64,000 nucleotides of DNA from Patescibacteria group bacterium (lineage in GTDB: Bacteria; Patescibacteriota; Patescibacteriia; UBA1558; GWA2-36-10). Of this stretch, positions 42,671-62,929 are shown one piece after another (position 1 is the stretch's first letter; each line of letters starts with the position of its first letter). The notes under the pieces were generated by a model, which saw only the letters and a list, made by a program, of their open reading frames with translations, searched no databases and was not told where the DNA came from. Both the position numbers and the translations under genes were made by a program. The stretch spans positions 8,047 to 72,046 of the forward strand of contig JAQUKX010000002.1 of the NCBI GenBank assembly GCA_028718865.1. The letters run 5' to 3'.

Positions 42671-42678
42671 CTTAAAAA

Positions 42679-45559: not shown

Positions 45560-45680
45560 TTGGCTCTGCCATGAACCATGACGGTTTATGGCTCTGCTAT
45601 AAACCATGGCGGTTTATGGCTCTGCTATAAACCATGGCGGTTTATGGCTCTGCTATAAACCATGGCGGTTTATGGCTCCG
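45560..45680. repeat. 28-bp tandem direct repeat, about 4.2 copies (ggctctgctataaaccatggcggtttat)
   Basis: Three identical copies plus one degenerate and one partial copy, at the core/island junction. Confidence 0.7.
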
Positions 45681-45737
45681 AGCTGTGCGAGAACTTAGAA
45701 CCGTTATTTTAAGCGGCTATAAGTCCTACGAAATGGA

Positions 45738-45790
45738 AGCGGCCGTCAAAATGCTCCGCCGGGAGTCGCCGTTCGATTGGATTGAGTAAA
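45738..45790 (+). repeat. copy C of a partially conserved ORF remnant (.. AAVKMLRRESPFDWIE*)
   Basis: Shares gcggccgtcaaaatgct with copies A and B. Reading frame runs in from the tandem repeats. Confidence 0.5.
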
Positions 45791-45798
45791 TTTCGATG

Positions 45799-46335
45799 TT
45801 ATTTCTTGCCTAATAAATATTTCACAAAAGTAGCGATGCCAACAAGCAAAAAGATGACTACTAAAACATAAATCGCAATCATCCAGCCGCCCCTGTAGCT
45901 AAAACCATACATCATATTACTTCCCCAGCCTGAACCCATCATGCCATTACCATATAGGCCAAACTGATTATTTTGATTACTGCCCCAATTCATCATTCTT
46001 GGCCCGTAATTGCCAGTCATCATTCCCATCATACCCATGCCGATAGCGTCTCCGCAATACCAGCGTCTGGCCATTAAAATATGCGCCTGCCTCAAACTCT
46101 CTGAACCTTCTCCGCCCATCATTTGATCCATTGCTTCATGACCCTGATCTGGTGCCATAAGTTCTATGTAGTAATCGCCAATTTTTTCCAACTGACCGTC
46201 GCTCAGCTGGGAACATTCTGTTTTTTGCTCAATCAAGCTTTGAGCTTCTTCATGGTCTGAAACGTTTGCGGCCAAAACCGGCAAAGATACAATCAGCGAA
46301 AAAAAAGCTAAGCTCAGAATAATTTTTTTCATCAT
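45799..46335 (-). CDS. secreted Met-rich protein with C-terminal TM (putative copper-binding)
   Basis: Signal peptide. MGMGMMGMMTGNYGPRMMNWG Met-rich motifs. Downstream of copB. Confidence 0.6.
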   Translation of the reverse strand: MMKKIILSLAFFSLIVSLPVLAANVSDHEEAQSLIEQKTECSQLSDGQLEKIGDYYIELMAPDQGHEAMDQMMGGEGSESLRQAHILMARRWYCGDAIGMGMMGMMTGNYGPRMMNWGSNQNNQFGLYGNGMMGSGWGSNMMYGFSYRGGWMIAIYVLVVIFLLVGIATFVKYLLGKK

Positions 46336-46357
46336 AAATTTATAGATTAATTGTTAA

Positions 46358-46618
46358 TTATTTTTTAATACTAATTTTAGAAACCGCCTGCCAAAGACCG
46401 ACAAAAATGTATCCCCAGACATAAGACTGGATAGCGCCTAATATGAATCCGCCTAAATTCATTCCCGAAAAACCCAAAAACGTCAGCCTGAATAATTGCT
46501 CGTGCAGTTCTCTTTCGGTTGATCTTAAATAAAACCATAAGAAGCAAAGGATAAATAAAACGACAAAGAATAAACCCAGACGATTGGCTTGTTGTAGATA
46601 ATTTGTTTTGTTTTCCAT
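46358..46618 (-). CDS. small membrane protein (86 aa)
   Basis: 2 TM; between copB and the Met-rich protein. Confidence 0.5.
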   Translation of the reverse strand: MENKTNYLQQANRLGLFFVVLFILCFLWFYLRSTERELHEQLFRLTFLGFSGMNLGGFILGAIQSYVWGYIFVGLWQAVSKISIKK

Positions 46619-46645
46619 AAATTTTGATGGTTAAATATTAGTTAA

Positions 46646-48691
46646 TTATTTTTTGACCTTTAATAATTTAGCGTTGACAGCCACCACGACCGTGCTTAAG
46701 GACATTAAAACCGCGCCAACGGCCGGGGAAAGCAAAATACCGTAAACCGCCAGAACGCCGGCGGCCAAAGGAATGGCAAAAATGTTGTAGCCGGTAGCCC
46801 ATGCTAAATTCTGAACCATTTTTTTGTAAGTGGCCTTGCCGAATAGAATGAGCGATGTAATATCTTTGGGATTGCTATTGACTAAAATAATATCAGCGGT
46901 TTCGGCGGCCACATCAGTTCCCGACCCGATGGCAATGCCCACGTTAGCTTGTGCCAAGGCCGGGGCGTCGTTAATTCCGTCGCCGACCATAGCCACAAAC
47001 TCGCCCTTGCTCTGCAATTCTTTGATTTTATCCTGTTTTTGATTAGGTAATACTCCAGCAAAATACCCATCGAGGCCGAGGGCGTCAGATACGCTTTTAG
47101 CGGAATTTTCATTGTCGCCGGTCAACATCCAAATCTTTATTCCCTCCTGTTTAAGAATTTTTACGGCCTTAAAAGATTCCTCGCGGATCGTATCGGTTAG
47201 ATTAACAGCGCCAGCCAAGTTGTTTTTATCCTGATCGTGGACAATCAAAAATACGGTTGTGCCTTCAGCGTTTTTAAGATCGTCAGGGATCGTCAAACCA
47301 AGCTCTTTTACATAACCGGGACTGGCGATTGAAATTTTTTTGTTTTCAATTACGCCTTCCGTGCCCTTGCCTTTGATAGCTTTAAACTTTTCTACTTCCG
47401 GCAAAGCGATGTTTCTATTTTTGGCTTCTTTTACAATTGCTTTGGCGATCGGGTGTTCTGAATTTTTATCCAAACCGGCAAACAGCCGCAGTATTTCGGC
47501 CTCTGAATATTCAGCACCAAATGAAAAAACATTTTTTACTCCAAAAGTTCCTTTGGTTAAAGTTCCCGTCTTATCAAAAACAATCGTGGAAATTTTCCGG
47601 GCATTTTCAAAAGCGGTGCGGTTTCTGATCAAAAGTCCGTTTTGAGCAGAGAGCGTAGTGGAAATAGCCGCGACCAAAGGAATGGCCAAACCCAAGGCGT
47701 GCGGACAAGCGATTACCAAGACCGTGGCGGTTCTTTCTATGGCAAAAGCTATATCTCGACCGGCTATAAGCCAGCTGATAAAAGTAATGACACCGACTGA
47801 AATAGCGACAATTGTCAGCCAAAAAGCGGCTTTGTCGGCTAAAGCCTGCGTTTTGGATTTTGATGCTTGGGCTTGTTTTACCAGATTAACGACTTTAGAA
47901 AGATAAGAATTTTCTCCCACGCCCTTGACTTGTATTTGAAGCGACCCATCTTCGTTAACCGAGCCGCCGATCACTTTATTTCCTTTTGTCTTTGAAACCG
48001 GTTTAGCCTCACCGGTTAACATTGATTCGTTAACGAAACTTTCGCCACCAATAATAATGCCGTCAGTCGGAATCTTCTCGCCGGGCTTGACCAAAATAAC
48101 ATCGCCGTCTTTTAATTGGCTGGTGGCAACATCCTGCGTCTCATTGCCTTTTAATAAATGAGCATTGTCAGGAATAAGAGCAGAAAGTTTTTCCAAGGCC
48201 ATGGACGCACCCATTACAGACTTCATCTCAATCCAGTGACCTAAAAGCATGATATCTATTAAAGTCACCAGCTCCCAGAAAAACACTTTACCGGCTAAAC
48301 CGAATACTACCGCCGAACTGTAAACATACGCCACGGCGATTGCCAGACTGATAAGTGTCATCATACCAATCGCCCGATTTTTAAATTCATTTTTCGCTCC
48401 GGCCAGGAATGGCCAACCGCCGTAGAAAAAGACAAACGAGGAGAGCAAAAACAGCAAATATTTATCTCCGGGAAAAGTCAGAGAAAATTTTAGAAATTGT
48501 TGCACTAACGGGGAAAGCGCCAGTACTGGAAAAGTCAAAACAAGAGACGCATAAAATCTCTTTTTAAACATTCCTATGGAATGTCCGGCATGCTTATTGT
48601 GGCCTTCATGTTCCGAGCGGTTTTGGTGCTCGTCGTGATCCGTTTGCGAATGACCGTGATGATTGTGTTGATTGTGATTTTTGTGATCCAT
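46646..48691 (-). CDS. copB: P1B-type heavy-metal ATPase, CopB-like (His-rich N-terminus, CPH motif)
   Basis: N-terminal HNHHGHSQTDHDEH stretch, TM CPH (ACPHALG), DKTGTLT phosphorylation site, GDGINDAP. Confidence 0.85.
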   Translation of the reverse strand: MDHKNHNQHNHHGHSQTDHDEHQNRSEHEGHNKHAGHSIGMFKKRFYASLVLTFPVLALSPLVQQFLKFSLTFPGDKYLLFLLSSFVFFYGGWPFLAGAKNEFKNRAIGMMTLISLAIAVAYVYSSAVVFGLAGKVFFWELVTLIDIMLLGHWIEMKSVMGASMALEKLSALIPDNAHLLKGNETQDVATSQLKDGDVILVKPGEKIPTDGIIIGGESFVNESMLTGEAKPVSKTKGNKVIGGSVNEDGSLQIQVKGVGENSYLSKVVNLVKQAQASKSKTQALADKAAFWLTIVAISVGVITFISWLIAGRDIAFAIERTATVLVIACPHALGLAIPLVAAISTTLSAQNGLLIRNRTAFENARKISTIVFDKTGTLTKGTFGVKNVFSFGAEYSEAEILRLFAGLDKNSEHPIAKAIVKEAKNRNIALPEVEKFKAIKGKGTEGVIENKKISIASPGYVKELGLTIPDDLKNAEGTTVFLIVHDQDKNNLAGAVNLTDTIREESFKAVKILKQEGIKIWMLTGDNENSAKSVSDALGLDGYFAGVLPNQKQDKIKELQSKGEFVAMVGDGINDAPALAQANVGIAIGSGTDVAAETADIILVNSNPKDITSLILFGKATYKKMVQNLAWATGYNIFAIPLAAGVLAVYGILLSPAVGAVLMSLSTVVVAVNAKLLKVKK

Positions 48692-48732
48692 ACTATTTAT
48701 ATTTTATCAAAATTTATAAAAAAGGCATACGT

Positions 48733-48807
48733 GCGGCTGTCAAAATGCTTAGGGGAGAAGAACCGTACAACGAGGAAGCTATGAAATGGATGGAACGGAC
48801 AAAATAA
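48733..48807 (+). repeat. copy A of the partially conserved ORF remnant (.. AAVKMLRGEEPYNEEAMKWMERTK*)
   Basis: About 88% identical over about 63 nt to copy B. Differences mostly synonymous third positions. Confidence 0.6.
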
Positions 48808-48823
48808 TAAAAAACAATACGAT

Positions 48824-49360
48824 TTACTCAATACAACAATCAATCGCTTTTTTCACCAATGTACCCAGCTTGCCCATAAATCCTTTCTTTTCCTCGTCCT
48901 GTTTGTTCAAAGCGTTTTCGTCTATTTTCTTGATATCGCCGACATTGAGCAATTTCATATTCAGCCCCCAAAACAGCGAGTAGAGATTATAGGCCTTGCC
49001 AAATAGGTCATAGGCCTCCTCCTTCCTGTCCATGCCAAGCTGTTTGGTGCCGACTTCCATCAGGCGGTAACTGGCCGCCAGCAAATGCTTGGAAATGCAC
49101 CAGACCTCTCCCTCGTATTCCTTGATGATCTTTTTAAGAAGTTCTTTTCGCATTTCGCGCACATCCTTGATCATGTCGTAGTATTCAGTTTTGCCAAGCT
49201 TCGCTCCGGTGAAGAAGAAATGCTCCTCAATGCTCACCAGATTCATGATGGCGATGCTCAAGTCCTGATCCGAAGACAAGTCCATCTTGTCCTGCTTTTT
49301 CATCTGGTCGACTTTTTCAATAAATTCGTTTAGATTTTTAATCGGGTTTTGGCTGCTCAT
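48824..49360 (-). CDS. hypothetical cytoplasmic protein (178 aa)
   Basis: ORF track only. Confidence 0.5.
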   Translation of the reverse strand: MSSQNPIKNLNEFIEKVDQMKKQDKMDLSSDQDLSIAIMNLVSIEEHFFFTGAKLGKTEYYDMIKDVREMRKELLKKIIKEYEGEVWCISKHLLAASYRLMEVGTKQLGMDRKEEAYDLFGKAYNLYSLFWGLNMKLLNVGDIKKIDENALNKQDEEKKGFMGKLGTLVKKAIDCCIE

Positions 49361-49372
49361 ATAGTTGGTTGG

Positions 49373-49888
49373 TTATTTTGTTAAGAAATAAAAGATCAGA
49401 CTCATGACGATAAGCGGGCTGACCGGCATGACGACTTTTTGAAATGGGAAGTAAGCATGGCCGCCGTTTTTCTCTTTTAAGTGATAATACCAACTTGCTC
49501 CGAACCAAAACGCGATACTTCCAACAATGATGCCGACAATCAGTTTATCAAGTCCGCAGGCGCAGATGGTGTTGAGCGGATTACCCATGATGCCCATGAA
49601 ATAAAGCGGCACGACGATCAGGAGATAGTAACCGGAAATCGTTGCCAGGGCCCGGCCGCGGAAGCGGATGTTTTTCTTGTCAAACCACGAAAGCGTCCAC
49701 GTAATCATGGATACCGTCAGGCCGCCAATCCATAGACCGGTGATGGAATCATCTATGCCTAACCATCGGGATAATCCAACACCAGCTCCCACGGCAATAG
49801 TGCAGATCGGACAGACCGCCAGAGCTTGCTTGGCAAAAAGGAGGCTTACCGCCATGACCGTCAGCGAAAATAAAATAACTTTTTTCAT
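49373..49888 (-). CDS. membrane protein with CPIC/CAC Cys motifs (start at internal ATG, MKKVILF)
   Basis: 4 TM with conserved Cys pairs. The longer track ORF has no supporting features. Confidence 0.55.
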   Translation of the reverse strand: MKKVILFSLTVMAVSLLFAKQALAVCPICTIAVGAGVGLSRWLGIDDSITGLWIGGLTVSMITWTLSWFDKKNIRFRGRALATISGYYLLIVVPLYFMGIMGNPLNTICACGLDKLIVGIIVGSIAFWFGASWYYHLKEKNGGHAYFPFQKVVMPVSPLIVMSLIFYFLTK

Positions 49889-49889
49889 A

Positions 49890-50303
49890 TTATTGTCCGT
49901 TGGTTTTTGTTTTAAAAAATTCAATAATGTCTTGATCGCCCACAAGACACTTTGAGCCGTCCCAGAGGAACGGAACGCCAATGGAGTCGGTTGGCATGCC
50001 GCACGCTCTCGCTTTGGCAACCAGCTCGTCAGCGTTATGTTTGTTGTAATATACTTCTTTTTTGGCAAAAGAAACTTTCGCCTCTACGCCGTTTTGATTG
50101 ACGTATTCCTCGACAATGGCGCAATGCGGACATCCGTCGCCGTAAAACAAAATGATGCCATCAGAAACGACTGCCGACTGATTCTCAGTATTTTCAACCG
50201 TGGCTACGGGAACGTCTGATGGTCTTTTGTTCAACAAAGCCACTATCGCAAAAACAGCAACGATTATGAATAAGATTGTCGGAGCGATGATTTTTTTGTT
50301 CAT
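49890..50303 (-). CDS. membrane-anchored thioredoxin-fold protein (CPHC active site)
   Basis: N-terminal TM; GDGCPHCA motif. Confidence 0.65.
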   Translation of the reverse strand: MNKKIIAPTILFIIVAVFAIVALLNKRPSDVPVATVENTENQSAVVSDGIILFYGDGCPHCAIVEEYVNQNGVEAKVSFAKKEVYYNKHNADELVAKARACGMPTDSIGVPFLWDGSKCLVGDQDIIEFFKTKTNGQ

Positions 50304-51016
50304 GAGAGTAAAAACTTAATTAAATATTGCGAATAATAAATTCCGGTTACCACAAATGTCGCGGCTACTGCATATCTGAACCACTTTTCGATTTTTTGAA
50401 CCGCCTGGAACGCTTTGCCAACGGCTTGCATGCTGAAAGCTATTAAAAAAGAGAAGATGATAACCGGCAGTCCGGTGCCTACGGCAAAAAGCGGCGGCAA
50501 AACAAGCCCGCCGGTTGATTTGAGCACCAGCGGAATTAAGACCCCAAAAAACAACACGCCGCTGTAAGGACAAAAGGCAAAGGCAAACAGCATGCCCAAG
50601 GCCAGCGCGCCCAGATGGCCCTTGTCCGCCAGCCATAATTTTACTTTTTCCATTGCTTGGCCGTTTCCTTTCAAATTGATTTTTATAACCCCGAACATCA
50701 CCAACCCGATGAGTATTAAAACCGGACCCAACACCTTGTCGCCCCAGCCTTGGAAAATTCTGGCAATTTGGAAAGACGAGAGCCCGAAATAAATCAGGGT
50801 CGCAAGCAAGGTATAGCTTATGCCTCTCCCCAGCGTATAAAAAAATCCGGACAGGATCGTATGCTTGGGTGTTTTTATGTCTTTGGAAATATAGGCGATG
50901 GCCGTAATGTTTGTCGCCAGAGGACAGGGGCTGATGGAAGTAAGTACTCCCAAAAGAAAGGCCGACAAAATCGGAATGTTGTAGTTGTCTATTAAAGCAT
51001 TTATAAATTCGGTCAT
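50300..51016 (-). CDS. ccdA: CcdA/DsbD-family thiol:disulfide transmembrane electron transporter
   Basis: 6 TM with conserved Cys in TM1/TM4 (ISPCPLAT). Confidence 0.75.
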   Translation of the reverse strand: MTEFINALIDNYNIPILSAFLLGVLTSISPCPLATNITAIAYISKDIKTPKHTILSGFFYTLGRGISYTLLATLIYFGLSSFQIARIFQGWGDKVLGPVLILIGLVMFGVIKINLKGNGQAMEKVKLWLADKGHLGALALGMLFAFAFCPYSGVLFFGVLIPLVLKSTGGLVLPPLFAVGTGLPVIIFSFLIAFSMQAVGKAFQAVQKIEKWFRYAVAATFVVTGIYYSQYLIKFLLS

Positions 51017-51020
51017 AGCT

Positions 51021-51527
51021 TTAGGATTTGCCGAGCAGTTTTTTCAGCTTGGCTTCAAAGTAATCCACGAATTGCTGTTCATTGGTAACCAGCCGCCAGA
51101 CAGTTACATCCTCCTCGATCTTTTCGCTTTCGGCAGTAATTGCGTTGGTATAAAGAGATGATCCGCCAGCTTGATACTTCATGACTATATCCCTATTTTC
51201 GGCCAGTTCGCCATTCACATCTTTATAAACAATAACGCCGTTCTTGTATTCCTCCGGAAATTTTTCCTTGATAGTTTTGAGGGCGTATTCGCCGACGGTA
51301 ATGCATGACCAGCATTGCTGAGTGGCATGGAAGTGGACGACCTCTATTTTCTCGGCTGTTAGAATCCTCGATGAATATCCTTGATCGGACGACACGCTCT
51401 GATTGCTTTGGCTGTTTTGATTATCCGCGACAGCTTCGGACGATCTCGGCGATCCGGAGCTGGCGATGGCCAGGACGACGAGAACCCCGATGCCGATTAT
51501 TGATCCGATAATAATTTTTTTGTTCAT
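51021..51527 (-). CDS. secreted thioredoxin-like protein (CWSC)
   Basis: Signal/TM anchor; HATQQCWSCI motif. Confidence 0.5.
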   Translation of the reverse strand: MNKKIIIGSIIGIGVLVVLAIASSGSPRSSEAVADNQNSQSNQSVSSDQGYSSRILTAEKIEVVHFHATQQCWSCITVGEYALKTIKEKFPEEYKNGVIVYKDVNGELAENRDIVMKYQAGGSSLYTNAITAESEKIEEDVTVWRLVTNEQQFVDYFEAKLKKLLGKS

Positions 51528-51531
51528 AATT

Positions 51532-52506
51532 TTATTTTACAAAGGCATTAAACAAATACCCGATTACGATTATATTTATGGTTGTTATTCCAAAAAAATA
51601 GACCAGCAGCTTTACTTTCATCACTCTCTTGAGGATGAGTGCTTCCGGCAGAGAAAGGCCGACCACCGCCATCATAAAGGCCATTGCCGTGCCAAGAGGG
51701 ATGCCTTTTTCAACAAGTGATTGCATAATCGGAATAACCCCGACAGCATTGGCATACATCGGCACAGCAACTATGGTGGCAATCGGCACGGCCAATAAAT
51801 TATCGGCGGTAATGTATTGTTCAAAAAATCCGGCTGGGACATAGCCGTGAATGAGCGCGCCAACGCCGATACCCAAAAGCACGTACGGAGTTATTTTCTT
51901 TGTTAAAGCCCATCCTTCTCGCCAGAATAATTTCAATAAGTCCCGGAAAGGTAGTTTATTTTTGGTAGTTTTGTTTTTCCGGCTCTTTATCTGCCAGACA
52001 TAATCAGCTACATATTTTTCCAGTTTGAGTTTGCCCAAAATAAAACCGCCGATTACGCCTAGCAGAATAGCCGCGACAACATACAGGATTGTTATTTTCC
52101 AACCAAACAATCCGGCAAACAGGACAACCGCGACTTGGTTCACGAGCGGCGAGGTGATGAGAAATGATAAGGTCACGCCAAGCGGAATACCGGTTTCCAG
52201 AAAACCAATAAAAAGAGGAATGGACGAGCAGGAGCAGAATGGCGTGATCGTGCCAAAAGCGGCGGCCAGCAAATAATCCAACCCATACCATTTCCTCGAA
52301 GCCAGAAAGTCGCGGAGCTTTTCAACCGGCAAGTAATGTCTGACAATGGCCATGAAATAGTTAATGACCAAAAGTAAGATAAGAATTTTCAGGGAATCGT
52401 AAATAAAAAAGTTAGCCGACGATCCAAGACGGGATTCCGGACCTATTTTAATAAGTCCATACGTCAGCCAATCGGCTAATAGTTGAAGTGGGTAAAAGAT
52501 GTCCAT
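51532..52506 (-). CDS. permease (DUF318-like)
   Basis: 8+ TM; typical partner of redox-active disulfide protein 2 and ArsR. Confidence 0.7.
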   Translation of the reverse strand: MDIFYPLQLLADWLTYGLIKIGPESRLGSSANFFIYDSLKILILLLVINYFMAIVRHYLPVEKLRDFLASRKWYGLDYLLAAAFGTITPFCSCSSIPLFIGFLETGIPLGVTLSFLITSPLVNQVAVVLFAGLFGWKITILYVVAAILLGVIGGFILGKLKLEKYVADYVWQIKSRKNKTTKNKLPFRDLLKLFWREGWALTKKITPYVLLGIGVGALIHGYVPAGFFEQYITADNLLAVPIATIVAVPMYANAVGVIPIMQSLVEKGIPLGTAMAFMMAVVGLSLPEALILKRVMKVKLLVYFFGITTINIIVIGYLFNAFVK

Positions 52507-52512
52507 ATCCTT

Positions 52513-52764
52513 TTATTTCGCGTTTTCTTTTATCAGTTGCTTAATTTTTTCAATGTCAGGCGTAAACCCGGTCATGGCCGGTTTGCCATTCACAGCCAGA
52601 ACCGGACTCGACATCACTCCCATCTCGACGATTTTTTGAATGTCGGTGATGTATTCCACTTCCACGCCGAGATTCATTTCGGCGACCGCTTCTTTCGTCA
52701 GTTCATACAGTTTTTTACAAGTCGAGCATCCCGATCCCAAGACTTGAATTTTGACGCTATTCAT
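52513..52764 (-). CDS. redox-active disulfide protein 2 (small thioredoxin-fold, CSTC)
   Basis: 83 aa, GSGCSTCKKL. Confidence 0.7.
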   Translation of the reverse strand: MNSVKIQVLGSGCSTCKKLYELTKEAVAEMNLGVEVEYITDIQKIVEMGVMSSPVLAVNGKPAMTGFTPDIEKIKQLIKENAK

Positions 52765-53071
52765 AGGATTGTAAAAATTTATTTAATAATGAATTGAATT
52801 TTGACATTTCTTTTTTGTTAATCCAATAAATCACCCTGAGCCCTTCTTTCCGGGAATCAATAAGACCTGCGTCTTTAAGCACTTTCAGGTGATGAGAGGC
52901 CAGGTTTTGAGGAATATCCAAATCCTGCCAGATATCGCAAACACAGCGTTCCCCGCCCTTAAGAACGCAAAGAATTTTCAGCCGGTTATCTTCGGCGATA
53001 ATTTTTAGAAGCTCGGCCGTTTGGCTTACTTCCTGACGGTTATTTTTGTCTGTGCAGCATTTTGGCTTCAT
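52757..53071 (-). CDS. arsR: ArsR/SmtB-family metalloregulator
   Basis: wHTH with CVCD metal site (ERCVCDIWQ). Confidence 0.8.
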   Translation of the reverse strand: MKPKCCTDKNNRQEVSQTAELLKIIAEDNRLKILCVLKGGERCVCDIWQDLDIPQNLASHHLKVLKDAGLIDSRKEGLRVIYWINKKEMSKFNSLLNKFLQSYE

Positions 53072-53142
53072 ATCCTTATTACATCAATTTATATTGATAT
53101 AGTAGCAAAAAGAAAAAGAGCCGTAAAGCCCTTCTGAAAAAC

Positions 53143-53220
53143 GCGGCCGTTAAAATGTTCCGGGGAGAAGAACCATACAACGAGGAAGCCATGAGGTGGA
53201 TGGAAAAAGTCGAACATTAA
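53143..53220 (+). repeat. copy B of the partially conserved ORF remnant (.. AAVKMFRGEEPYNEEAMRWMEKVEH*)
   Basis: See copy A. In-frame TGA about 50 nt upstream, so it is a remnant. Confidence 0.6.
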
Positions 53221-53324: not shown

Positions 53325-53651
53325 TTATCCAAACACGAACACTTTATCAGATTCTTCAACCACCTTGAGCAAATCGGTCATGGTAGAGACGGGACAGACT
53401 CCGGCTTCCTTTTTGCCGCGAATTTCCAAACATGTACCACAAGCATACAGCTTTCCTTTCAATTCCTTGTATTCCGCAACTTTCTTTGAGATGTCGAAGT
53501 GTTCCGTGTCGGCAATAGTATCAAGCTCGGATCCCTCGCTCATCAAAAATATAGTCACATCATGACTGGCTTTAAGCGAAGTGATGCCGAAACGAAATGT
53601 GTTCCAAATATGTTCCGGGTTGTTGGATTGTAAGATTATACCGAACTTCAT
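53325..53651 (-). CDS. DsrE/DsrF-like sulfur-relay family protein
   Basis: 108 aa; conserved Cys (YACGTC), DsrE-like fold pattern. Confidence 0.65.
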   Translation of the reverse strand: MKFGIILQSNNPEHIWNTFRFGITSLKASHDVTIFLMSEGSELDTIADTEHFDISKKVAEYKELKGKLYACGTCLEIRGKKEAGVCPVSTMTDLLKVVEESDKVFVFG

Positions 53652-53688
53652 AAGTCTATTGTAGCAAAAAAGATAAAATTTAAAAATA

Positions 53689-54408
53689 TCACGGCCAAAG
53701 AATTAACTTAATGCCTATGGCGAGAAGAAAAATGGCAATAATGACACGGAACTTATTCTGCGGTATCCGGTCAACGATCCTTTTTGCGATCTGCGCTCCG
53801 AAAAAAGAGACTGGAATAAAAAGAATCAGTCCGTACCACAACTCTCTCGGCAATGTCGCGCCTCCGGTGAAATAGGTAATAATACGAGTAGAGTCTACCA
53901 ACAGCCCAATCGCTCCGGCGGTAGCGATGAAAACGGCTTTAGGCAAGTCAAAAGCAGAAAGAAACGCACTCCGGATTGCGCCACCAATGCCGAACATCCC
54001 GGCAAAGAATCCCGACAAAGCTCCGCCGGATATTGCTGTGATATTCCCGGCCGGTATTTTGAACTTTGACTGAAAGGCCACGAACAAGGCATATCCGGCT
54101 AGAAACGCGCCGAGGACACGAAGCAGTATTTCCTCATTTACACCGAGCGAGATATATGCGCCAAGATAACTTGTTGCAAGACCAACTAAACCGAAGAGTA
54201 CGAGTAGCCGAACATTAAATCCTTTGCGGAACAGCGAGACTTTCCATACATCGCCGAACCAATGGATAATCGCCACTAAAAATATCGCCTCGACCGGCGG
54301 AAAGAATATCACCAACACCGGAATCATGAGCGTGGATGTTCCGAAGCCAGTAATTGTGCCGATGGTAGCGGCTACGAGTGTTAAGATTGAGATGTATAAA
54401 ATTTCCAT
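53689..54408 (-). CDS. TauE/SafE-family (sulfite/anion exporter, DUF81) membrane protein
   Basis: Two 4-TM repeats, Gly-rich TM motifs. Confidence 0.75.
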   Translation of the reverse strand: MEILYISILTLVAATIGTITGFGTSTLMIPVLVIFFPPVEAIFLVAIIHWFGDVWKVSLFRKGFNVRLLVLFGLVGLATSYLGAYISLGVNEEILLRVLGAFLAGYALFVAFQSKFKIPAGNITAISGGALSGFFAGMFGIGGAIRSAFLSAFDLPKAVFIATAGAIGLLVDSTRIITYFTGGATLPRELWYGLILFIPVSFFGAQIAKRIVDRIPQNKFRVIIAIFLLAIGIKLILWP

Positions 54409-54411
54409 AGA

Positions 54412-54717
54412 TTATTTTTGTGTATCCCGATGTTCCAAGAGTTTCTCGGCTGGGGAGATACCGCCAAGAATTTCATGTGGGAAGTAATTCCAAGCATCGG
54501 TGACCAGCTCAAGCACGTTGCTTAATTCTGAAGCGTCTCCGCCGCGATCAAACATAGCCACTACTTTCATCATGCCGTCGTTATCTTCTTCGTTGTAAAT
54601 GGCGTCCCGGACATGATCTAAGGTAAACTCACTCCCTGTTTCTTTTAGCATTTCCGCGAGCTCCTGCTCGATCTCTTTTCTCCGTTCAAAAATTTGTTGT
54701 TTAGATTCGATTTCCAT
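54412..54717 (-). CDS. hypothetical acidic protein (101 aa)
   Basis: ORF track only. Confidence 0.45.
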   Translation of the reverse strand: MEIESKQQIFERRKEIEQELAEMLKETGSEFTLDHVRDAIYNEEDNDGMMKVVAMFDRGGDASELSNVLELVTDAWNYFPHEILGGISPAEKLLEHRDTQK

Positions 54718-54759
54718 AAATTATTCGACCCGACCTGTTTGCGCGCAAGCAGAACCCCC

Positions 54760-55626
54760 TTAAACTTTTACTGGGCTAAGCTCTTTTGGAAAAATCATTA
54801 CCTCTCTGCCGATTTTAGATTCATATGCGTTGTGTTGAATAGCAAAACCCCTCAGGCGCATTGATGCATATAAATTTTTAATATACGGCACATCATCGTA
54901 AGTCATGATCCATTTTTTGAATGATGATTCTCCCAAAAATTCTGATAGATTTTCGTGATCTTTGTTGCTGTAATGGTTTAGATATAGTGACTGTCCTTTC
55001 TGGAAATATGGCGGATCAAGAAATATAAAATGTTGATTTTTATTTTTGCGTCCTTCCATTTTTTTTAACAATTCTATTCCGTCCAGATTGTATACTTCAA
55101 TTTTATTACGAAATTCTTTAACCTTTTCCAATCGGTCAATGATAGTCTGTTTGGTAAAGCGTGCGTTTACTTTCCATGTTCCGGATTGATCAATTCCTCC
55201 TATCGGTCCGCCATTCATGATCCCTGAACGGTTTGTTCTGTTTAAAAATAGAGTGGCAAATGCAAGTTTACGGTCGCTTTTTGTAGATGTATAAATTGTT
55301 TTTTGTCTTCTCCATTCCTCTATGGTAACCTCGGTCCGCTTTATCTTACCGATTAAATAATCGGCATCAGAAACAGCTATTTTCCAAAAAGTAAAAATTG
55401 CTTTATCAAGATCATTGATAACAATTTTTTCTACTTTTTTGGCAAATAGTAGAGCAAGCGAAGCGCCCGCTCCTCCCGCATATGGTTCCACCAAAACAAC
55501 TTTTTCTTTTTGATCGAAGTTTTTCTCTATTGCCTCAAGCAGTTTATTGGCAAGACGGGTCTTCCCGCCAGGGTAACGCAGAGGGCTGGAGAAACCCGAT
55601 ATTTTTTTGTCAGTTTCTTTTTTCAT
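54760..55626 (-). CDS. Dam-like (D12-class) N6-adenine DNA methyltransferase
   Basis: Motif I region PLRYPGGK; motif IV DPPY (FLDPPYF). Confidence 0.8.
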   Translation of the reverse strand: MKKETDKKISGFSSPLRYPGGKTRLANKLLEAIEKNFDQKEKVVLVEPYAGGAGASLALLFAKKVEKIVINDLDKAIFTFWKIAVSDADYLIGKIKRTEVTIEEWRRQKTIYTSTKSDRKLAFATLFLNRTNRSGIMNGGPIGGIDQSGTWKVNARFTKQTIIDRLEKVKEFRNKIEVYNLDGIELLKKMEGRKNKNQHFIFLDPPYFQKGQSLYLNHYSNKDHENLSEFLGESSFKKWIMTYDDVPYIKNLYASMRLRGFAIQHNAYESKIGREVMIFPKELSPVKV

Positions 55627-56972
55627 TTTTTTGCGTGCGTAATGTTCAACATCGCTCCGATGATAATCGACATTCCTACAGTTTGCTCAAAATTTGCAGA
55701 ATTGGCATAGTTATGCGCACCGGATTGCAATAACTGAATCAAACCCTTTGCGTTAATAATACTGTTGTTCGCCAGGGTTGTCTTCTGGTCTTGTGTCAAT
55801 TGTTTTTTTGCATTTTCGTAATTGGCATTCACGTAATCCGCTATTCCTTTTGTTTTCGGAGTAGCAGATTCGATGAGTAATCGTAATGACATTCTGATCA
55901 ATGCAGGAAAATTTTTTGATAATTTGTCCGTATTTTTTGAGTAAAAGTCATATAGGTCCAAAACGTCCATATAGATATTATTTGCGTCTCCTTTTTTCAG
56001 CACCAAATCCTGTCCGAATAGTGCTTGCACTTTATTCTTTTCTCTCGCTGTTTTCCTTGGCGCAGGCAGTTCTGCTTTCTTCTTTTCTACCTCGGTACTC
56101 TTCTTGGTAACAGAAAAACTGGGGTCTATCTCTGCAAAGACATTTTCAACTAGCCAATCTTGAGTAGCTTGTGCTGGTACCTTGTGCGGATCTGTAATAT
56201 AAGGAACCAAGAGCTTTAGTTTTTTGTCTGATTCATTTCGGTTTGTAAATGTTATATCCCCTTTATTATTGGTTGAGTAATCCAAAAGTTTCTTTCCATT
56301 TGTACTTAGAATCAAACGGTCTATTTTGTTGAAACCAGACTTGAGTAATTCTTCCTCATCTTTGTCTGTCCTGATTTGTTCTAAAATCTGTTCGTAGAAA
56401 AATAGTTTCTCAAGCTCTTTCTTAAAGAGCGTAGGCGTTACCCCATACTCGGAAGAAGCAGAATCAATATCATACTCCCCGGAATCTATCAAATTTCTGT
56501 ACATTCTGAGTTTTTGTAATACTTGCCAAGGTTTTAGAAGCTGATTGACATGAATATCCCAAATTTCTTTCTCTGCTTCCTTGCGAGAGGGGGCAATGGT
56601 AATCTTTACATTCTTGAGTTCTTGTTTATTAGTAATCTTATTTAGTTCCTCTAGTTCCTTTTTATCCCGAGCATTTGGTGCAAGCTCGGGTTTAAGTAAA
56701 AGTTGGCATGCTGCTAACCGACGATTTCCGTCCAAGACTATTGTCCGTCCGTTTTCTTTACAGACAATCGCAACGGCACTTCTGTGGTAGCCATTATTTG
56801 CAATATTTCTCGCGATTCTCAAAATATCCTCTTTATCCAAAAGATAGTTCCTAACTTGAGTAATATCGTTTTGATCTCTGACATGTTTTGGTAGGCGTGG
56901 ATTTTGCAAATCCAATTCTAAAGTTGCAACATCAACAATGTCATCCTTCCAATTGTTTCTTGTTTTTGCCAT
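55623..56972 (-). CDS. ParB/Srx-fold (ParB-like nuclease domain) protein with about 350-aa uncharacterised C-terminal extension
   Basis: N-terminal QNPRLPK ... VLDGNRRLAA. 4-nt overlap (ATGA) with the Dam-like gene. Confidence 0.6.
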   Translation of the reverse strand: MAKTRNNWKDDIVDVATLELDLQNPRLPKHVRDQNDITQVRNYLLDKEDILRIARNIANNGYHRSAVAIVCKENGRTIVLDGNRRLAACQLLLKPELAPNARDKKELEELNKITNKQELKNVKITIAPSRKEAEKEIWDIHVNQLLKPWQVLQKLRMYRNLIDSGEYDIDSASSEYGVTPTLFKKELEKLFFYEQILEQIRTDKDEEELLKSGFNKIDRLILSTNGKKLLDYSTNNKGDITFTNRNESDKKLKLLVPYITDPHKVPAQATQDWLVENVFAEIDPSFSVTKKSTEVEKKKAELPAPRKTAREKNKVQALFGQDLVLKKGDANNIYMDVLDLYDFYSKNTDKLSKNFPALIRMSLRLLIESATPKTKGIADYVNANYENAKKQLTQDQKTTLANNSIINAKGLIQLLQSGAHNYANSANFEQTVGMSIIIGAMLNITHAKK

Positions 56973-57072
56973 ATACGATTATTTATATTATAGCGAGTTT
57001 TTGAATATTTTTCGATAGCATAAATTTATTTTTACTCCGGAAACTTACCGCCCGAAATATCAAAAGCTCGTA

Positions 57073-58236
57073 TTACCGATTACCTTTTGCCCGATTATGG
57101 GTTTTACACAGCATCTCACAATTTTTTACATCAGTAGCACCACCCTTGCTCCAAGCCGAAACATGATCGGCGTCCATATCTGCCAAAGTCCAAATTTTAT
57201 CCTTGTTTGCATCATGACCAATCGCGCAATGTGAGCAGTTCGAAATACCTTTCTTTTTTGCGGCGGCAGTTTGAGCCTCATACACCGAACGTTTTGTTGA
57301 GTCTTCAAATACTCGAACTTCAAGCAATTTTGTTTCTACTTCTCCACCTAAAACATATTCGAAAATACCTTTACGACTTTTCACGAAACCATCGGCATAG
57401 AGTTTCTGAACCTTAGCAGAAACTGTTGCGGGGTTATATTTTTTCTTGTGGTACGTCTGATACAGCCTGTTCCATTCAAGACCCTTCATTTCACTTTCAA
57501 CGTCTGTGAAGGTAGTCGAAACCCAATCGATAACAGTCTCGAAATGCTTTTTTAGTTCAGTGATGTTTTTGTCGTTACGATGTTTACTCATGTAGCTATC
57601 GATTTCTCCATCAGAGACCCAATCTAAAGCCCGTTCTAAATATGCTTGACGTTTGATATCACCTGCGATGTAGGTACTCCATTTCTGAATGTTGGTATTT
57701 TGACTATTACTAAATTCTTCGCGAGCGCGAGTGACAAATGGCCCAGAATATACTGCATTAAGAATCTCTTGTTCGGTTAATGGTACTCCAGCGATATTAA
57801 TAGTCTTAAACCAATCCTTGATCTCAGGCTCGTCACCTTTACACAAATACACTAACAATCTGGCGTCCATTATTTGCTCGCGCTGACTAGTAGCCATACC
57901 ACTGTAATATTGTTCATGACCATTCTTATCTTTGACAGCAAACTTGCCTGTCACGAACCGACCGATGCTAGTGATGCGTTGCTGTCCATCGAGCACTTCA
58001 AATTTATCAGTACCAACTTGGTTAAAATAAATTAAACCTATTGGGTAACCTTTCAAAATTGAGTCAATTACGGCAACATCACGTTTGCCATCAGCGTAAA
58101 TGTAGTTACGCTGATACTCTGGCTGAATAGTTAGTTTACCCGAGAGACCAAACAACCCTTTTCCTTCGAGTTCGTTATAGACGAAGCCGTCGCAAACTTC
58201 TTTTATCGTGATGTCATTTTTTAGTGTGGTTTTCAT
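57073..58236 (-). CDS. DUF262 (DGQQR) + C-terminal HNH nuclease fusion (GmrSD-like modification-dependent restriction family)
   Basis: QPEYQRNY and LDGQQR motifs. C-terminal CSHC...DADHV...N...CKTHN HNH. Confidence 0.8.
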
Positions 58237-58238
58237 AA

Positions 58239-59429
58239 TTATTTTTTCTTGTGCTTAATTAAGACTCTCTGATAAACTTTTTCTCTCAACCCATCGCGGA
58301 GTACTACGCCACTAGCATTCAAATCGTACACACCTTTCTTACCAAACTTATCTAAATATGCTTGCTTGCACTCCGCAGAGGTGTAGACTTTTGTTTTTTG
58401 CTTGTATAAATCCTCATTTTCACACATTCCCACAATTTCAAACTGCTCAGGGGAATACTTATCAAGAAAACTAATTGGGACACCCATGATGTTTTTGTAA
58501 TCACTCGGAATATTTTTTACCAACGAAACTTCAATTGCGTTATAGTTCTCGTATTTTTCAAACTCCTTGTTTGTTGAGAACTTAATAACATCCGATTTTT
58601 TCATCAAAGGAATCGGTTGATGAAGTCGTCCGTGATCAAGGTTCGTGAACCAACGAACACCTTGAACTCTTGTTATGTATACTTTTTTACCTTTTTCATC
58701 GGTTTTAATTTCACGAACTTGATCTAGGTTTGCAACAGCTTCTGGAATCTCATAAAACATTGCACCGCCATTAACTCTTGCGTTGTTTCCGAGCCATACC
58801 TTATTTTCTTTTATCATTGGAAAAACTTCCTTATAGGTTATTGCATTGAGATTACCAATGATTAGAAAATGTTTTTTATGATCAAAAAGTTGCGTAATAT
58901 ATTCACGAAATAAACTAAATGGAGGATTGGTGACTACGATGTCAGATTGTTTGAGCAACTCGACACACTCGTCGCTTCTAAAGTCGCCATCACCCTCAAG
59001 CGGAGTCCATTCGTTGTTTTTGTTAGTTCTAAGCTGTTGGGCAATATCTTCTAGTGTAAAAGAGCCGTCGCCGTCCACATCACCAACTTCGTTGATAATA
59101 AATTTATTAGCGACAATTTTTGGTCGCCCTTTGACAGGTTCGAGGGTAATATCATCACCAAATAGTCCTAGTTGAGTATTTGCAACTGGTGACGGTTTGT
59201 AGCTAGTTGCAATAAGTCTTTTCAACCCTAATCTTTTAAAATTTAGGACGAAGTAGCGAAAGAAATTGCTTTCAAATGGGTCGTCGCAGTTGCTGTAAAC
59301 CACCTTACCTTTAAAAGTATTTGGGTCATACTCAAGATAAGACTCGACTTCTTTTTGGATATCTAAAAATTGAGTATAAAATTCATCATTTTTTGCCTTC
59401 TTTGCATTTGTAAGATTTTTGTTTGCCAT
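58239..59429 (-). CDS. N6-adenine DNA methyltransferase (NPPF motif IV)
   Basis: N-terminal DEFYT; VVTNPPFS catalytic motif. Stop overlaps the start of the DUF262-HNH gene. Confidence 0.75.
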
Positions 59430-59578
59430 AAATTTATTTTTCGCTCTCAGCTCGAGCTTTTAACAAAAATATAGTTTCGGACTTCAATTTCGCCCGAGCC
59501 CAGTCTTTTTTGGCTGTTTTGATAGTCATTTGATGGTTTGTCATGTAGTGAAAATAAAATATCGGGAAAGTGCCCAAT

Positions 59579-61058: not shown

Positions 61059-61253
61059 TTACTTTTTATGTTTCTTTTTTACATTACTCGTTTCTTCAAG
61101 AAAGGCGTTGAGATCAGACTGTTTGATTCTCCAGACTCCGAGCTTGGAAGCCTTTAATCGACCAGCCTCAATATACCGAGTAACTGTGCGAGTATGTACT
61201 CGCAATATGTCGGCGATTTCCTCAATAGTGAAAAGTTTTTCGATGTCGTTCAT
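61059..61253 (-). CDS. excisionase/AlpA-family HTH DNA-binding protein (64 aa)
   Basis: FTIEEIADILRVHTRTVTRYIEAGRL HTH. 4 nt upstream of the ATPase gene. Confidence 0.7.
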   Translation of the reverse strand: MNDIEKLFTIEEIADILRVHTRTVTRYIEAGRLKASKLGVWRIKQSDLNAFLEETSNVKKKHKK

Positions 61254-61588: not shown

Positions 61589-61964
61589 GGAAAGGGCGTT
61601 TATCACCCCTTCTAGTTAAAAAATGAACTCCGTCAACTTTCTGTCAGTTTTTGTCAGACAAATTATTGTCCACAGCAAACAGCTCTTGCGGCGTTTTTCC
61701 GGATCAGCTAAAATACATACATTAGAGTTAGTTAGTCTGACGGCGACTGAATTTTCAGTCTAAACGCGACGGGACTACGACTTCTGTTATCAAACCTTTC
61801 CGCTTTGTTGTGGATCGGAACTTGGTGACAAGAGTCGTGGTCCCTTTTTCGTTTCTAACCGGCTCTGCAAATTAATTTTTCCCTCTGAGGCTAAGGTGCC
61901 CAGATTAGACTGACGAATTTGATTAGACAGATAAAGGCTAGCTCCCAGCAGGGGCCAGCCTTTT

Positions 61965-62165
61965 ATGTTGCCCCAGGAAGCAATCCAAGAATTTAAAACA
62001 CTGTATGAAAAACGCTACGGCGTGAAGCTCTCCGATGAGGAGGCGTCTTTGCGCGCAAACAATCTTTTCAAACTCTACAAGATTACCTACATGGGTGAGC
62101 CTTCTATTGATGACTTCAAAGAAAAAGTAGTGAAAAGCCATGACCTCAACACCAACCACAATTAG
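61965..62165 (+). CDS. small hypothetical protein (66 aa)
   Basis: ORF track; follows a roughly 340-bp non-coding stretch. Confidence 0.4.
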   Translation: MLPQEAIQEFKTLYEKRYGVKLSDEEASLRANNLFKLYKITYMGEPSIDDFKEKVVKSHDLNTNHN

Positions 62166-62848: not shown

Positions 62849-62929
62849 AGCACTTAGTAATAAAGATTGAGTAAGAAAGAGATAATAATAAAGCTTAAAT
62901 AAAGCGAGATAGCTCGTCAAAAATTAAAA

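What the first reader, a model, noticed from the sequence alone, without database searches (positions are those of the whole stretch)
45738..53220. Three partially conserved plus-strand ORF remnants punctuate the metal/redox island
A roughly 65-nt segment encoding ..AAVKM(L/F)RGEEPYNEEAM(K/R)WME.. occurs at about 48733-48795 and 53143-53205. A shorter related copy sits at about 45739-45790. Five of the 8 nucleotide differences between copies A and B are synonymous third-position changes, which argues for protein-level constraint. Copy A has no in-frame start and copy B has a nearby in-frame TGA, so these are 3' remnants of a small gene family. All copies are plus-strand while every flanking cassette gene is minus-strand. 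They sit at the module junctions: repeat/copB block, ArsR-redox cassette, DsrE/TauE block. This looks like repeated cassette insertion or recombination at copies of one target gene, analogous to a cassette array.
Basis: seen in the sequence. Interest (0 to 1): 0.6.

Follow-up and report, generated by a model that had tools for sequence, protein, structure and literature searches.

The report
Detached serine-integrase tails mark island junctions
The three repeats are leftover 3' ends of a large serine integrase gene: the first marks the left edge of a mobile island inserted beside a tRNA-Asn gene in a CPR (Patescibacteria) bacterium, and the other two look like scars where older stacked islands lost their integrases but kept their metal and redox cargo.

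Summary
Copies A (48733-48807) and B (53141-53220) share 54 of 63 nt, with codon-like substitutions. Copy C is not the shortest copy but the only complete one (45676-45789).

The parent is not a small target gene. It is the last ~37-47 codons of a large serine recombinase (LSR) gene of CPR bacteria.
- In these elements the attP crossover (GCTC|CG) lies inside the LSR reading frame.
- Integration next to tRNA-Asn(GTT) therefore detaches the tail. The tail ends up at the far (left) end of the island, and the LSR body ends inside the tRNA.

This was seen in about 57 loci:
- homology starts exactly at the first nucleotide of the tail;
- the left flanks are unrelated;
- a minus-strand tRNA-Asn lies 1-10 kb to the right;
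- the LSR 3' end overlaps that tRNA.

The window carries the same conserved module (61059-64000). It ends before the expected LSR and tRNA.

A and B lack the att core and the first 63 nt of the tail. They fit the extreme end of a deletion series seen in tandem arrays elsewhere (L006, L061, L014, L012). Why both stop at the same nucleotide is unexplained.

Verdict: a new variant of a known kind, an accreted LSR genomic island.

The parts
45561..45678 (+). 28-nt tandem repeat (4.2 copies of TGGCTCTGCTATAAACCATGGCGGTTTA). It forms the chromosomal (B) arm directly abutting the island edge. Each unit starts with TGGCTC, the left part of the att core. The first unit contains the start codon of the minus-strand ABC transporter gene.
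   Evidence: TRF; unique among the loci checked
45673..45680 (+). att core TGGCTCCG, the inferred attL crossover region. It corresponds to the CCA / discriminator / acceptor end of tRNA-Asn read on the opposite strand.
   Evidence: Only one occurrence in the window. Homology with other loci starts here. The same sequence joins the LSR to tRNA-Asn in L011, L057 and L058.
45676..45789 (+). Copy C: a complete detached LSR tail (the P' arm of attP plus 37 codons and a stop; short allele). It marks the left end of the island.
45799..48691 (-). Cargo unit 1: a Met/Gly-rich 178-aa secreted or membrane protein, an 86-aa membrane protein, and a CopB-like P-type ATPase (46646-48691).
   Evidence: Pfam. 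The same arrangement of a block followed by small proteins and CopB occurs in L006 and L009.
48733..48807 (+). Copy A: a truncated tail (codons 22 to stop, long allele) lacking the att core and the P' half-site. It lies 41 nt upstream of the copB start codon.
48824..53071 (-). Cargo unit 2: ArsR regulator (52757-53071), thioredoxin-like protein, ArsP-type permease, a 168-aa ORF, a DsbD_2 membrane protein, and ORFs of 137, 231 and 178 aa with no Pfam match.
   Evidence: Pfam
53141..53220 (+). Copy B: a truncated tail (codons ~21/22 to stop, long allele) lacking the att core. A terminator-like hairpin (53114-53135, minus strand) sits immediately to its left.
53325..61054 (-). Cargo unit 3: DsrE-like protein, TauE/SafE exporter, a recurrent 101-aa protein, D12 adenine methylase, a 449-aa ORF, GmrSD-HNH endonuclease, EcoRI-type methylase, and a Schlafen/AlbA_2 ATPase.
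   Evidence: Pfam. The 101-aa gene lies 0.8-0.9 kb from full blocks in L015, L020 and L021. The GmrSD/methylase pair is 71% identical at nucleotide level to the L001 island.
61059..61253 (-). 64-aa HTH_17 (excisionase-type) protein, conserved next to the integration module. It is a candidate directionality factor or regulator.
   Evidence: Pfam; 76% identical to the L058 homologue
61621..64000 (+). Conserved integration/maintenance module: a 66-aa protein (61965-62165), a SpoVG-like protein (62140-62448), a 146-aa protein (62408-62848), and a membrane protein ORF from 63202 that runs off the window end. In relatives the LSR and tRNA-Asn follow directly.

Best explanation
Window 45673 to beyond 64000 is a composite genomic island of a CPR/Patescibacteria bacterium. 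[quoted passage not shown]

In these elements the attP crossover (GCTC|CG, codons Leu|Arg) lies inside the LSR reading frame, about 37-47 codons before its stop. Integration therefore splits the gene.
- The LSR body stays at the right end of the island. It now terminates a few codons into the antisense tRNA (attR).
- The detached tail becomes the extreme left end of the island (attL).
- Excision, or a neighbouring element in a tandem array, rejoins body and tail in frame. This is the only configuration in which the tail can be translated, and it explains its codon-level conservation.

Copy C is that attL tail. Copies A and B are what remains of the tails of two further elements stacked at the same site (accretion). 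Deletions removed each older element's module, its LSR and the first 63 nt of the next tail, including the att core. This fixed the copper, ArsR/redox and sulfur/defence cargo operons in place.

Shown here: the identity of the parent gene, the boundary, the target and the architecture in relatives.
Inferred: the split-and-rejoin cycle, the accretion history in this window, and the presence of the LSR and tRNA-Asn just beyond the window end.
For: 1. Parent gene.
- In L006 the block is the last 47 aa of a 556-aa ORF with Resolvase, Recombinase and Zn_ribbon_recom domains (this is P0017).
- Two LSR subfamilies that are only 25% identical share sequence up to ...P.(W/V/L)L. After that point they carry either a native-like tail with an ..RT.. 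motif or a translation of an antisense tRNA T-arm (..WDSNPRP..). A rough count over 237 homologues gives about 100 tRNA-type tails, 49 stopping immediately, and about 36 native-like.

2. Boundary.
- In all loci examined the conserved DNA starts abruptly at CTC(C/A)GAGC, with unrelated upstream sequence.
- In five pairs of different species, 77-96% identity starts within 2 nt of the block start, runs 0.9-4 kb rightward, and is absent to the left.

3. Target.
- A minus-strand tRNA-Asn(GTT) lies 1-6.5 kb to the right of the block in 7 loci.
- The LSR stop overlaps the tRNA-Asn 3' end in L011, L030, L057, L058 and L060.
- L011 shows both ends of one ~10-kb element.

4. The window carries the same architecture.
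- HTH_17, the 66-aa protein, the SpoVG-like protein, the 146-aa protein and the membrane protein are all present. Nucleotide identity is 90% to L004, and protein identity to L058 is 59-94%.
- The left flank (1-45.6 kb) is ordinary chromosome with no recombinase.

5. Protein-level constraint.
- Across 48 unique cores, diversity at codon positions 1/2/3 is 0.115/0.070/0.296, and dN/dS is 0.165.
- Third-position diversity is lower in the first 9 codons (0.18 against 0.35). This fits an added DNA-level constraint from the att half-site.

6. Tandem arrays and a deletion series in other loci.
- Intact LSR plus block in L006.
- 140 aa of LSR left in L061, and about 60, 27 and 15 aa left in L014, L002 and L007.
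- Truncation inside the tail at nt 52 in L012 and at nt ~62-64 in window copies B and A.

7. Cargo next to C and B is also found next to full blocks in other genomes.
Against: - The LSR and tRNA-Asn of this island are not visible because the window ends inside the module. The source contig could not be retrieved.
- No excised circle or empty attB was observed, so the rejoined LSR-plus-tail form is inferred from geometry and from tandem junctions.
- A and B begin at the same nucleotide (within 2 nt), although they are 14% diverged. Two independent random deletions would rarely coincide like this.
- Canonical LSRs do not recombine attP with attL or attR. How arrays form is therefore unclear, even though arrays are directly seen in L006 and L061 and are described for other LSR islands.
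- The dN/dS estimate is biased downward, because the loci were found through conserved peptide patterns.
Confidence: 0.8

Rival explanations
1. Rival on the origin of A and B. They are not two independent deletion scars. Either a single already-truncated junction was duplicated or exchanged between elements, so the truncated tail served as a portable homology patch for adding cargo units. Or nt ~52-64 of the tail is a secondary, site-specific or hotspot breakpoint used repeatedly.
For: - A and B start within 2 nt of each other, and the only other partial copy (L012) starts 12 nt away.
- A and B share the rare PYNEEAM signature.
- All three partial copies lie 30-70 nt upstream of the start codon of a minus-strand cargo gene.
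Against: - A and B are as diverged from each other (14%) as tails from different lineages.
- Full-length tails with the PYNEEAM signature exist (P0006).
- No sequence similarity was found in the flanks left of A and B.
- No extra recombinase was found in the cargo.
- Twenty further metagenome loci contained only full blocks, so no recurrent truncated form was seen.
Confidence: 0.3
2. The block is a stand-alone small gene (a 40-60 aa three-helix protein) that sits at island borders, as the database annotations of 'hypothetical proteins' imply. A and B are then pseudogene fragments of it.
For: - Gene callers predict 41-70 aa proteins over it.
- Conservation is codon-like.
- 21 of 57 copies have ATG, TTG or GTG directly before the block.
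- AlphaFold2 gives a three-helix model with mean pLDDT 75.
Against: - 36 of 57 copies have a non-start codon at that position, including TGG in 17, TAG in 4 and TGA in 1. That triplet is the complement of the tRNA CCA/CAx end.
- There is no conserved upstream promoter or ribosome-binding site, because the upstream DNA is unrelated in every locus.
- The predicted N-termini are all different.
- The block is fused in frame to full or partial LSR genes.
- No Pfam family or structural neighbour was found.
Confidence: 0.08
3. One reading: copies of one small chromosomal target gene into which cassettes were inserted repeatedly, as in an integron-like cassette array.
For: - Repeats sit at module junctions.
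- All cargo lies on the opposite strand.
- The cargo is modular.
Against: - The repeats travel with the mobile DNA, not with the chromosome.
- The real target is tRNA-Asn.
- A and B lack the crossover core.
- No tyrosine integrase was found, and the repeats show no attC-type palindromic structure.
Confidence: 0.04
4. The segments are conserved non-coding elements, such as terminators, 3' UTR structures or a small RNA, shared by the cargo operons.
For: - They lie in intergenic positions, antisense to the 3' ends of minus-strand operons.
- A terminator-like hairpin lies next to B.
Against: - There is strong three-base periodicity of substitutions, with synonymous AGA/CGA exchanges.
- No Rfam family matches.
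- The hairpin near B lies outside the repeat.
- The sequence is in frame with LSR genes elsewhere.
Confidence: 0.03

Closest known systems
Dehalococcoides ssrA genomic islands (LSR DsiB) and staphylococcal SCCmec (CcrAB)
   Same: - Integrative, mobilisable islands driven by large serine recombinases.
- They insert at the 3' end of one single-copy RNA or housekeeping gene.
- They pile up in tandem.
- Older members lose their integration module but keep adaptive cargo ('accretion', PMC3146451).
- A conserved multi-gene integration module sits next to one end.
   Different: - The target here is a tRNA gene (tRNA-Asn).
- There is a single LSR rather than a CcrA/B- or DsiA/B-type pair.
- The recombinase ORF itself spans attP and loses a conserved 37-47 aa tail on integration.
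- The internal repeats in this window are fragments of that tail, not direct repeats of the target's 3' end, and they lack the att core.
tRNA-targeting genomic islands and tycheposons (tyrosine integrases; Islander/TIGER signature)
   Same: - The island sits next to a tRNA gene.
- New arrivals push older elements inward.
- Fragmented integrases and partial att copies are scattered through the island.
- Cargo consists of defence and nutrient or metal genes.
   Different: - The recombinase is a serine enzyme, not a tyrosine enzyme.
- The Islander paper (2014) states that serine integrases were not known to target tRNA genes.
- Only about 8-10 nt of tRNA identity is duplicated, rather than a long displaced tRNA fragment.
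Integration-dependent immunity of mycobacteriophages (attP inside the repressor gene); SSV1-type integrases with attP inside int (the SSV1 case is from my own knowledge)
   Same: - attP lies inside a coding sequence.
- The integrated and free forms therefore encode proteins with different C-termini.
- The target is a tRNA gene, and host DNA supplies the new stop codon (PMC9262239).
   Different: - There the gene is a repressor (or a tyrosine integrase in SSV1), and the lost piece is a short degradation tag with a demonstrated role.
- Here the gene is the serine integrase itself, and the lost piece is a conserved three-helix tail of unknown role.
Integron cassette arrays
   Same: An ordered array of cargo units separated by short related sequences.
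   Different: - No IntI, attI or attC.
- The separators are coding fragments in direct orientation without a recombination core.
- The units are whole operons with their own promoters.

Membership tests
Large serine recombinase (parent gene of the repeats) | N-terminal resolvase catalytic domain followed by a recombinase domain and a zinc-ribbon domain | tested here: met
   L006:8474-10144 (carries the block as its C-terminus) and L011:18529-20112 both match PF00239, PF07508 and PF13408 above the cut-offs. 240 homologues carry the same domains.
Large serine recombinase (parent gene of the repeats) | An LSR body belonging to this particular island | not testable with these tools
   The window ends at 64000 inside the module's membrane-protein gene. 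The source contig is not in the look-up collection. No LSR fragments other than the three tails occur in the window.
LSR-type integrative element | Sharp element boundaries, with the recombinase gene adjacent to one attachment site and a defined chromosomal target | tested here: met
   Met in relatives. Homology starts within 2 nt of the block start in 5 genome pairs. The LSR stop overlaps tRNA-Asn(GTT) in 5 loci. In the window only the left boundary is visible.
LSR-type integrative element | attP and attB half-sites share a zinc-ribbon-domain motif that is shifted 5 bp outward in attP (Rutherford 2013) | tested here: inconclusive
   The outer segments of P' (block) and B' (tRNA T-arm..TTCGAACC..) match best at a +5 shift (mean identity 0.51). 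A -2 shift gives 0.48.
Accreted islands of the SCCmec / ssrA-GI type | Neighbouring islands are separated by direct repeats that contain the attachment core | tested here: not met
   TGGCTCCG and the 28-nt P' half-site occur once in the window, at copy C. Copies A and B start 63 nt downstream of the core. Intact P|P' junctions do exist in relatives L006 and L061.
Integron | IntI tyrosine integrase, attI, and cassettes ending in imperfect-palindrome attC sites | tested here: not met
   No tyrosine recombinase domain was found in any ORF scanned. The repeats are direct, coding-type fragments.
Genes split by their own attP (integration-dependent switches) | attP lies inside an ORF, so integration changes the C-terminus | tested here: met
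   The junction codons L|R are shared by tails of native type and tRNA-derived type. L011 attL and attR rejoin in frame.
Genes split by their own attP (integration-dependent switches) | The removed C-terminus changes activity or stability of the protein | not testable with these tools
   Only conservation (dN/dS 0.165) and a three-helix model with no structural neighbour are available.

The most novel reading that the evidence does not exclude
The detachable tail is a built-in state sensor. The serine integrase carries its conserved three-helix C-terminal tail only when the element is excised, or sits in a tandem junction. It loses the tail the moment it integrates. The two isoforms could then differ in activity, directionality or stability: for example, integration-competent with the tail, and silent or excision-prone without it. 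This would be a serine-integrase counterpart of integration-dependent immunity, widespread across Patescibacteria. It would also be a natural design for self-limiting integrases.
Probability: 0.25. Interest if true: 0.75.

Novelty: new variant of a known kind. Interest (0 to 1): 0.55.

Why it matters
- It explains a set of 40-70 aa 'hypothetical proteins' and odd LSR C-termini (..WDSNPRP..) in CPR metagenome annotations. They are products of one architecture: an integrase ORF that runs across its own attachment site.
- It identifies tRNA-Asn as a hotspot where ultra-small CPR bacteria acquire defence, metal-resistance and redox genes. How these bacteria exchange genes is poorly understood. The block gives a simple sequence tag for mapping such islands precisely.
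- tRNA targeting by serine integrases was long thought not to occur.
- Naturally split integrases with precisely predictable attP and attB sites are candidate genome-engineering tools.
- If the tail regulates the enzyme, this would be a new way of controlling directionality.

Tried and rejected
- Rfam scan of the whole window: only three tRNAs, nothing at the repeats.
- Viral contig scans with the block and with the 146-aa module protein: no relatives. There is therefore no sign that this is a prophage.
- Retrieval of the window's own contig with three different window proteins: not on record.
- Idea that a ~25-nt 'core' (GCGGCCGTCAAAATGCTCCG) is a crossover site separating long and short tail variants. 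Rejected: the variants stay homologous through ..E.PFD and differ by a 5-codon deletion plus an early stop, so they are alleles.
- Idea that the 5' halves of A and B are present but degenerate. Rejected: in-register identity is 20-21 of 63 against a null of 16 +/- 3.4, and local alignment scores fall within shuffles.
- The two 178-aa ORFs that follow C and A are unrelated.
- Search for remnants of the module or LSR between the cargo units: none found.
- Metagenome scan for more truncated copies: all 20 loci carry full blocks.
- Fold search with the tail model: no match with E below 1.
- Base composition does not set the island apart.
- Literature searches for CPR LSR islands or tRNA-Asn-targeting serine recombinases found no description.
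Full report
**1. The observation**

The repeat finder reports 48733-48795 and 53143-53205 as a 63-nt direct repeat with 86% identity. There are nine differences. Six lie at third codon positions of the frame that reads AAVKM(L/F)RGEEPYNEEAM(K/R)WME. Five codons change synonymously and two change conservatively.

Read through to their stop codons, the copies are 48733-48807 (A) and 53141-53220 (B). The third copy was under-described. Homology runs from 45676 to 45789 and encodes LRAVRELRTVILSGYKSYEMEAAVKMLRRESPFDWIE*. Copy C is therefore the complete version, and A and B are its C-terminal halves.

All three copies are on the plus strand, and each sits between minus-strand operons:
- an ABC transporter to the left of C;
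- a CopB-type P-type ATPase unit between C and A;
- an ArsR / thioredoxin / ArsP / DsbD_2 unit between A and B;
- DsrE / TauE followed by methylases, GmrSD-HNH and a Schlafen-type ATPase after B.

**2. Relatives**

A profile of the three peptides recovered only 41-70 aa 'hypothetical proteins' from Parcubacteria and Patescibacteria metagenomes. They share the core LRAVRELRTVILSGWHSYEMDAAVKMLRGEEPF.EE.MRWME.. but have unrelated N-termini.

Scans of one genome per species and of metagenome contigs gave 33 and 20 loci. The organisms named in the record titles are almost all CPR lineages.

At the DNA level the conserved block begins abruptly at CTC(C/A)GAGC. The upstream sequence is unrelated in every locus and is often a terminator-like hairpin. 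The codon before the block is a possible start (ATG, TTG or GTG) in only 21 of 57 copies. It is TGG in 17 copies, TAG in 4 and TGA in 1. Four copies carry in-frame stops.

Substitutions are nevertheless strongly codon-like. Diversity at codon positions 1/2/3 is 0.115/0.070/0.296 over 48 unique cores, and dN/dS is 0.165. One caveat applies: the loci were found through peptide patterns, which biases dN downward.

**3. The parent gene**

In L006 the block is the last 47 residues of a 556-aa ORF. Pfam identifies this ORF as a large serine recombinase (Resolvase, Recombinase and Zn_ribbon_recom domains).

Its homologues, and those of a second LSR subfamily only 25% identical to it (the L011 type), share sequence up to ...P.(W/V/L)L and then diverge completely. 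Their tails fall into three groups:
- native-like tails with a common L-R-x-x-x-x-x-R-T motif, of which our block is one family;
- tails that stop within a few codons;
- tails that are the translation of an antisense tRNA T-arm (RGWDSNPRP, RGQDSNLQP and similar).

A rough count over 237 proteins gives about 100, 49 and 36 for the tRNA-type, immediate-stop and native-like classes. The recombinase ORF therefore runs across a recombination junction at codons Leu|Arg (DNA GCTC|CG).

**4. The target and the architecture**

- A minus-strand tRNA-Asn(GTT) lies 1-6.5 kb to the right of the block in L002, L009, L012, L030, L031, L034 and L036.
- In L011, L030, L057, L058 and L060 the LSR stop codon overlaps the 3' end of that tRNA. 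The sequence ..AAC TGG CTC CG. is at once Asn-Trp-Leu-Arg and the complement of the tRNA's acceptor/CCA end.
- L011 shows a whole ~10-kb element: block, cargo, module, LSR, then tRNA-Asn. Joining its two ends puts the block in frame behind the LSR.
- The order is constant: tail, then cargo on the opposite strand, then a 64-aa HTH_17 protein, a 66-aa protein, a SpoVG-like protein, a ~142-aa protein, one or two further small genes, a membrane protein, the LSR, tRNA-Asn, and then housekeeping genes.
- In five pairs of different species, 77-96% nucleotide identity starts within 2 nt of the first base of the block and runs 0.9-4 kb rightward. There is none to the left.

The block is therefore the left terminus of a horizontally moving element. 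Its first ~30 nt resemble the tRNA's acceptor/T-arm. A shared ..TT.GAACC motif fits best at the +5 bp offset expected between attP and attB half-sites of serine integrases (PMC3783163). An alternative offset scores almost as well, so I count this only as consistent.

**5. This window**

- Positions 1-45.6 kb carry ordinary chromosomal genes and no recombinase: LexA, FtsEX, CorA, Dus, aminoacyl-tRNA synthetases, an RND pump, a sigma factor, a hydrogenase, and the ABC transporter directly left of copy C.
- The att core TGGCTCCG occurs once, at 45673-45680.
- From 61059 the window carries the conserved module: HTH_17, the 66-aa protein, the SpoVG-like protein, the 146-aa protein, and a membrane-protein ORF from 63202 that runs off the end. 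Nucleotide identity to L004 is 90%, and protein identity to L058 is 59-94%.
- The island therefore spans 45673 to beyond 64000. Its LSR and tRNA-Asn are expected just outside the window. I could not fetch the source contig, so this step is inferred.

**6. Copies A and B**

Both copies lack the core and the P' half-site. No trace of the first 63 nt survives upstream of either. No module or LSR debris lies between the cargo units.

Other loci show what such junctions look like earlier in their history:
- L006 has an intact LSR fused to the block of the next element.
- L061 has three stacked units, with a 140-aa LSR stump fused to a block and an L011-type LSR fused to a different tail.
- L014, L002 and L007 keep about 60, 27 and 15 residues of LSR.
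- L012 has a partial tail starting at nt 52, just upstream of a cargo gene and 330 nt from tRNA-Asn.

A and B (nt ~62-64) extend this deletion series. Two further points fit this reading. CopB follows full blocks in L006 and L009. The 101-aa gene of unit 3 lies 0.8-0.9 kb from full blocks in L015, L020 and L021.

I therefore read the window as three 'tail + cargo' left ends stacked by accretion. The older units have been stripped of their mobility genes. This pattern is described for the serine-recombinase ssrA islands of Dehalococcoides and for SCC elements (PMC3146451), and for tycheposons.

What remains unexplained is why A and B, which are 14% diverged, begin at the same nucleotide. All three known partial copies start within a 12-nt stretch and sit 30-70 nt upstream of a cargo start codon. 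A breakpoint hotspot, a duplicated truncated junction, or selection on the retained half cannot be excluded.

**7. What the tail does**

This is unknown. The tail can be translated only when it is joined to an LSR, that is, in an excised circle or a tandem junction. Yet across 48 unique copies from many lineages it evolves under clear protein-level constraint, with dN/dS of 0.165. It models as three short helices (pLDDT 75) with no structural neighbour.

The nearest precedent for an attP inside a gene is integration-dependent immunity in mycobacteriophages. There, integration into a tRNA gene removes a C-terminal degradation tag (PMC9262239). A comparable state-dependent role for the LSR tail is the most interesting reading, but it is untested.

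**8. Novelty**

The kind of system is known: a serine-recombinase genomic island with accretion. I found no description of three features:
- CPR elements that target tRNA-Asn;
- serine integrases aimed at tRNA genes, which the Islander paper said were unknown;
- an LSR ORF that is split by its own attP.

The library searched is incomplete, so this is absence of evidence only.

I rate it a new variant of a known kind, of moderate interest. It is wrong about the parent gene and about the copies being the target.

Noticed in passing
window 45561-45678: A 28-nt tandem repeat (4.2 copies) lies exactly between the ABC-transporter start codon and the island edge. Every unit begins with TGGCTC, the left part of the att core, and contains a 6-bp hairpin (TAAACC..GGTTTA). 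The first unit carries the transporter's ATG. None of the 56 other loci has such a repeat. It may be a scar of repeated events at the attachment site, or it may come from slippage.
   Followed up: partly
window 61523-61587: Two adjacent 31-nt imperfect palindromes (TTTACTATATCA..TGATATAGTAAAC) lie between a 108-aa zinc-ribbon ORF (61194-61520) and the start of the conserved module. They could be operator or origin-like sites.
   Followed up: no
proteins P0019-P0256 (relatives): Many CPR serine recombinases in public databases end in peptides such as RGWDSNPRPIG or RGQDSNLQP. These are translations of the antisense T-arm of the adjacent tRNA. The C-termini are junction products, not family features.
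   Followed up: partly
L061:5093-5518, 8737-10419 and 15189-15272: One contig carries three stacked units: an LSR stump fused to the block, a complete element whose LSR is fused to a different tail type (ALLRDFRTLDW..), and a further LSR 3' stump. No tRNA was detected by ARAGORN in the locus.
   Followed up: partly
window 54412-54717: A 101-aa protein with no Pfam match recurs close to the block in L015, L020, L021 and L006 (73-81% nucleotide identity). It may be a conserved accessory gene of these elements rather than cargo.
   Followed up: no
window 57073-59429: A GmrSD_N-HNH endonuclease and an EcoRI-type adenine methylase form a pair that is 71% identical at nucleotide level to a pair in the L001 island. 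L001 is bounded by the same block. This points to defence cargo shared between islands.
   Followed up: no
window 53114-53135 (minus strand): A terminator-like hairpin with a T-run sits directly left of copy B, followed by an ArsR-type inverted repeat (ATCAA..TTGAT) in front of arsR.
   Followed up: no
L012:10001-10140, L021:1353-1454, L034:10001-10102, L054:2990-3127: These tails have in-frame stop codons, which suggests that they belong to islands that can no longer regenerate a full-length integrase.
   Followed up: no
window 8135-11815 and 37319-38797: Large ORFs (1226 aa and 492 aa) have no Pfam match. An [FeFe]-hydrogenase with a Nuo51-like subunit (40940-43659) lies next to the island flank.
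   Followed up: no
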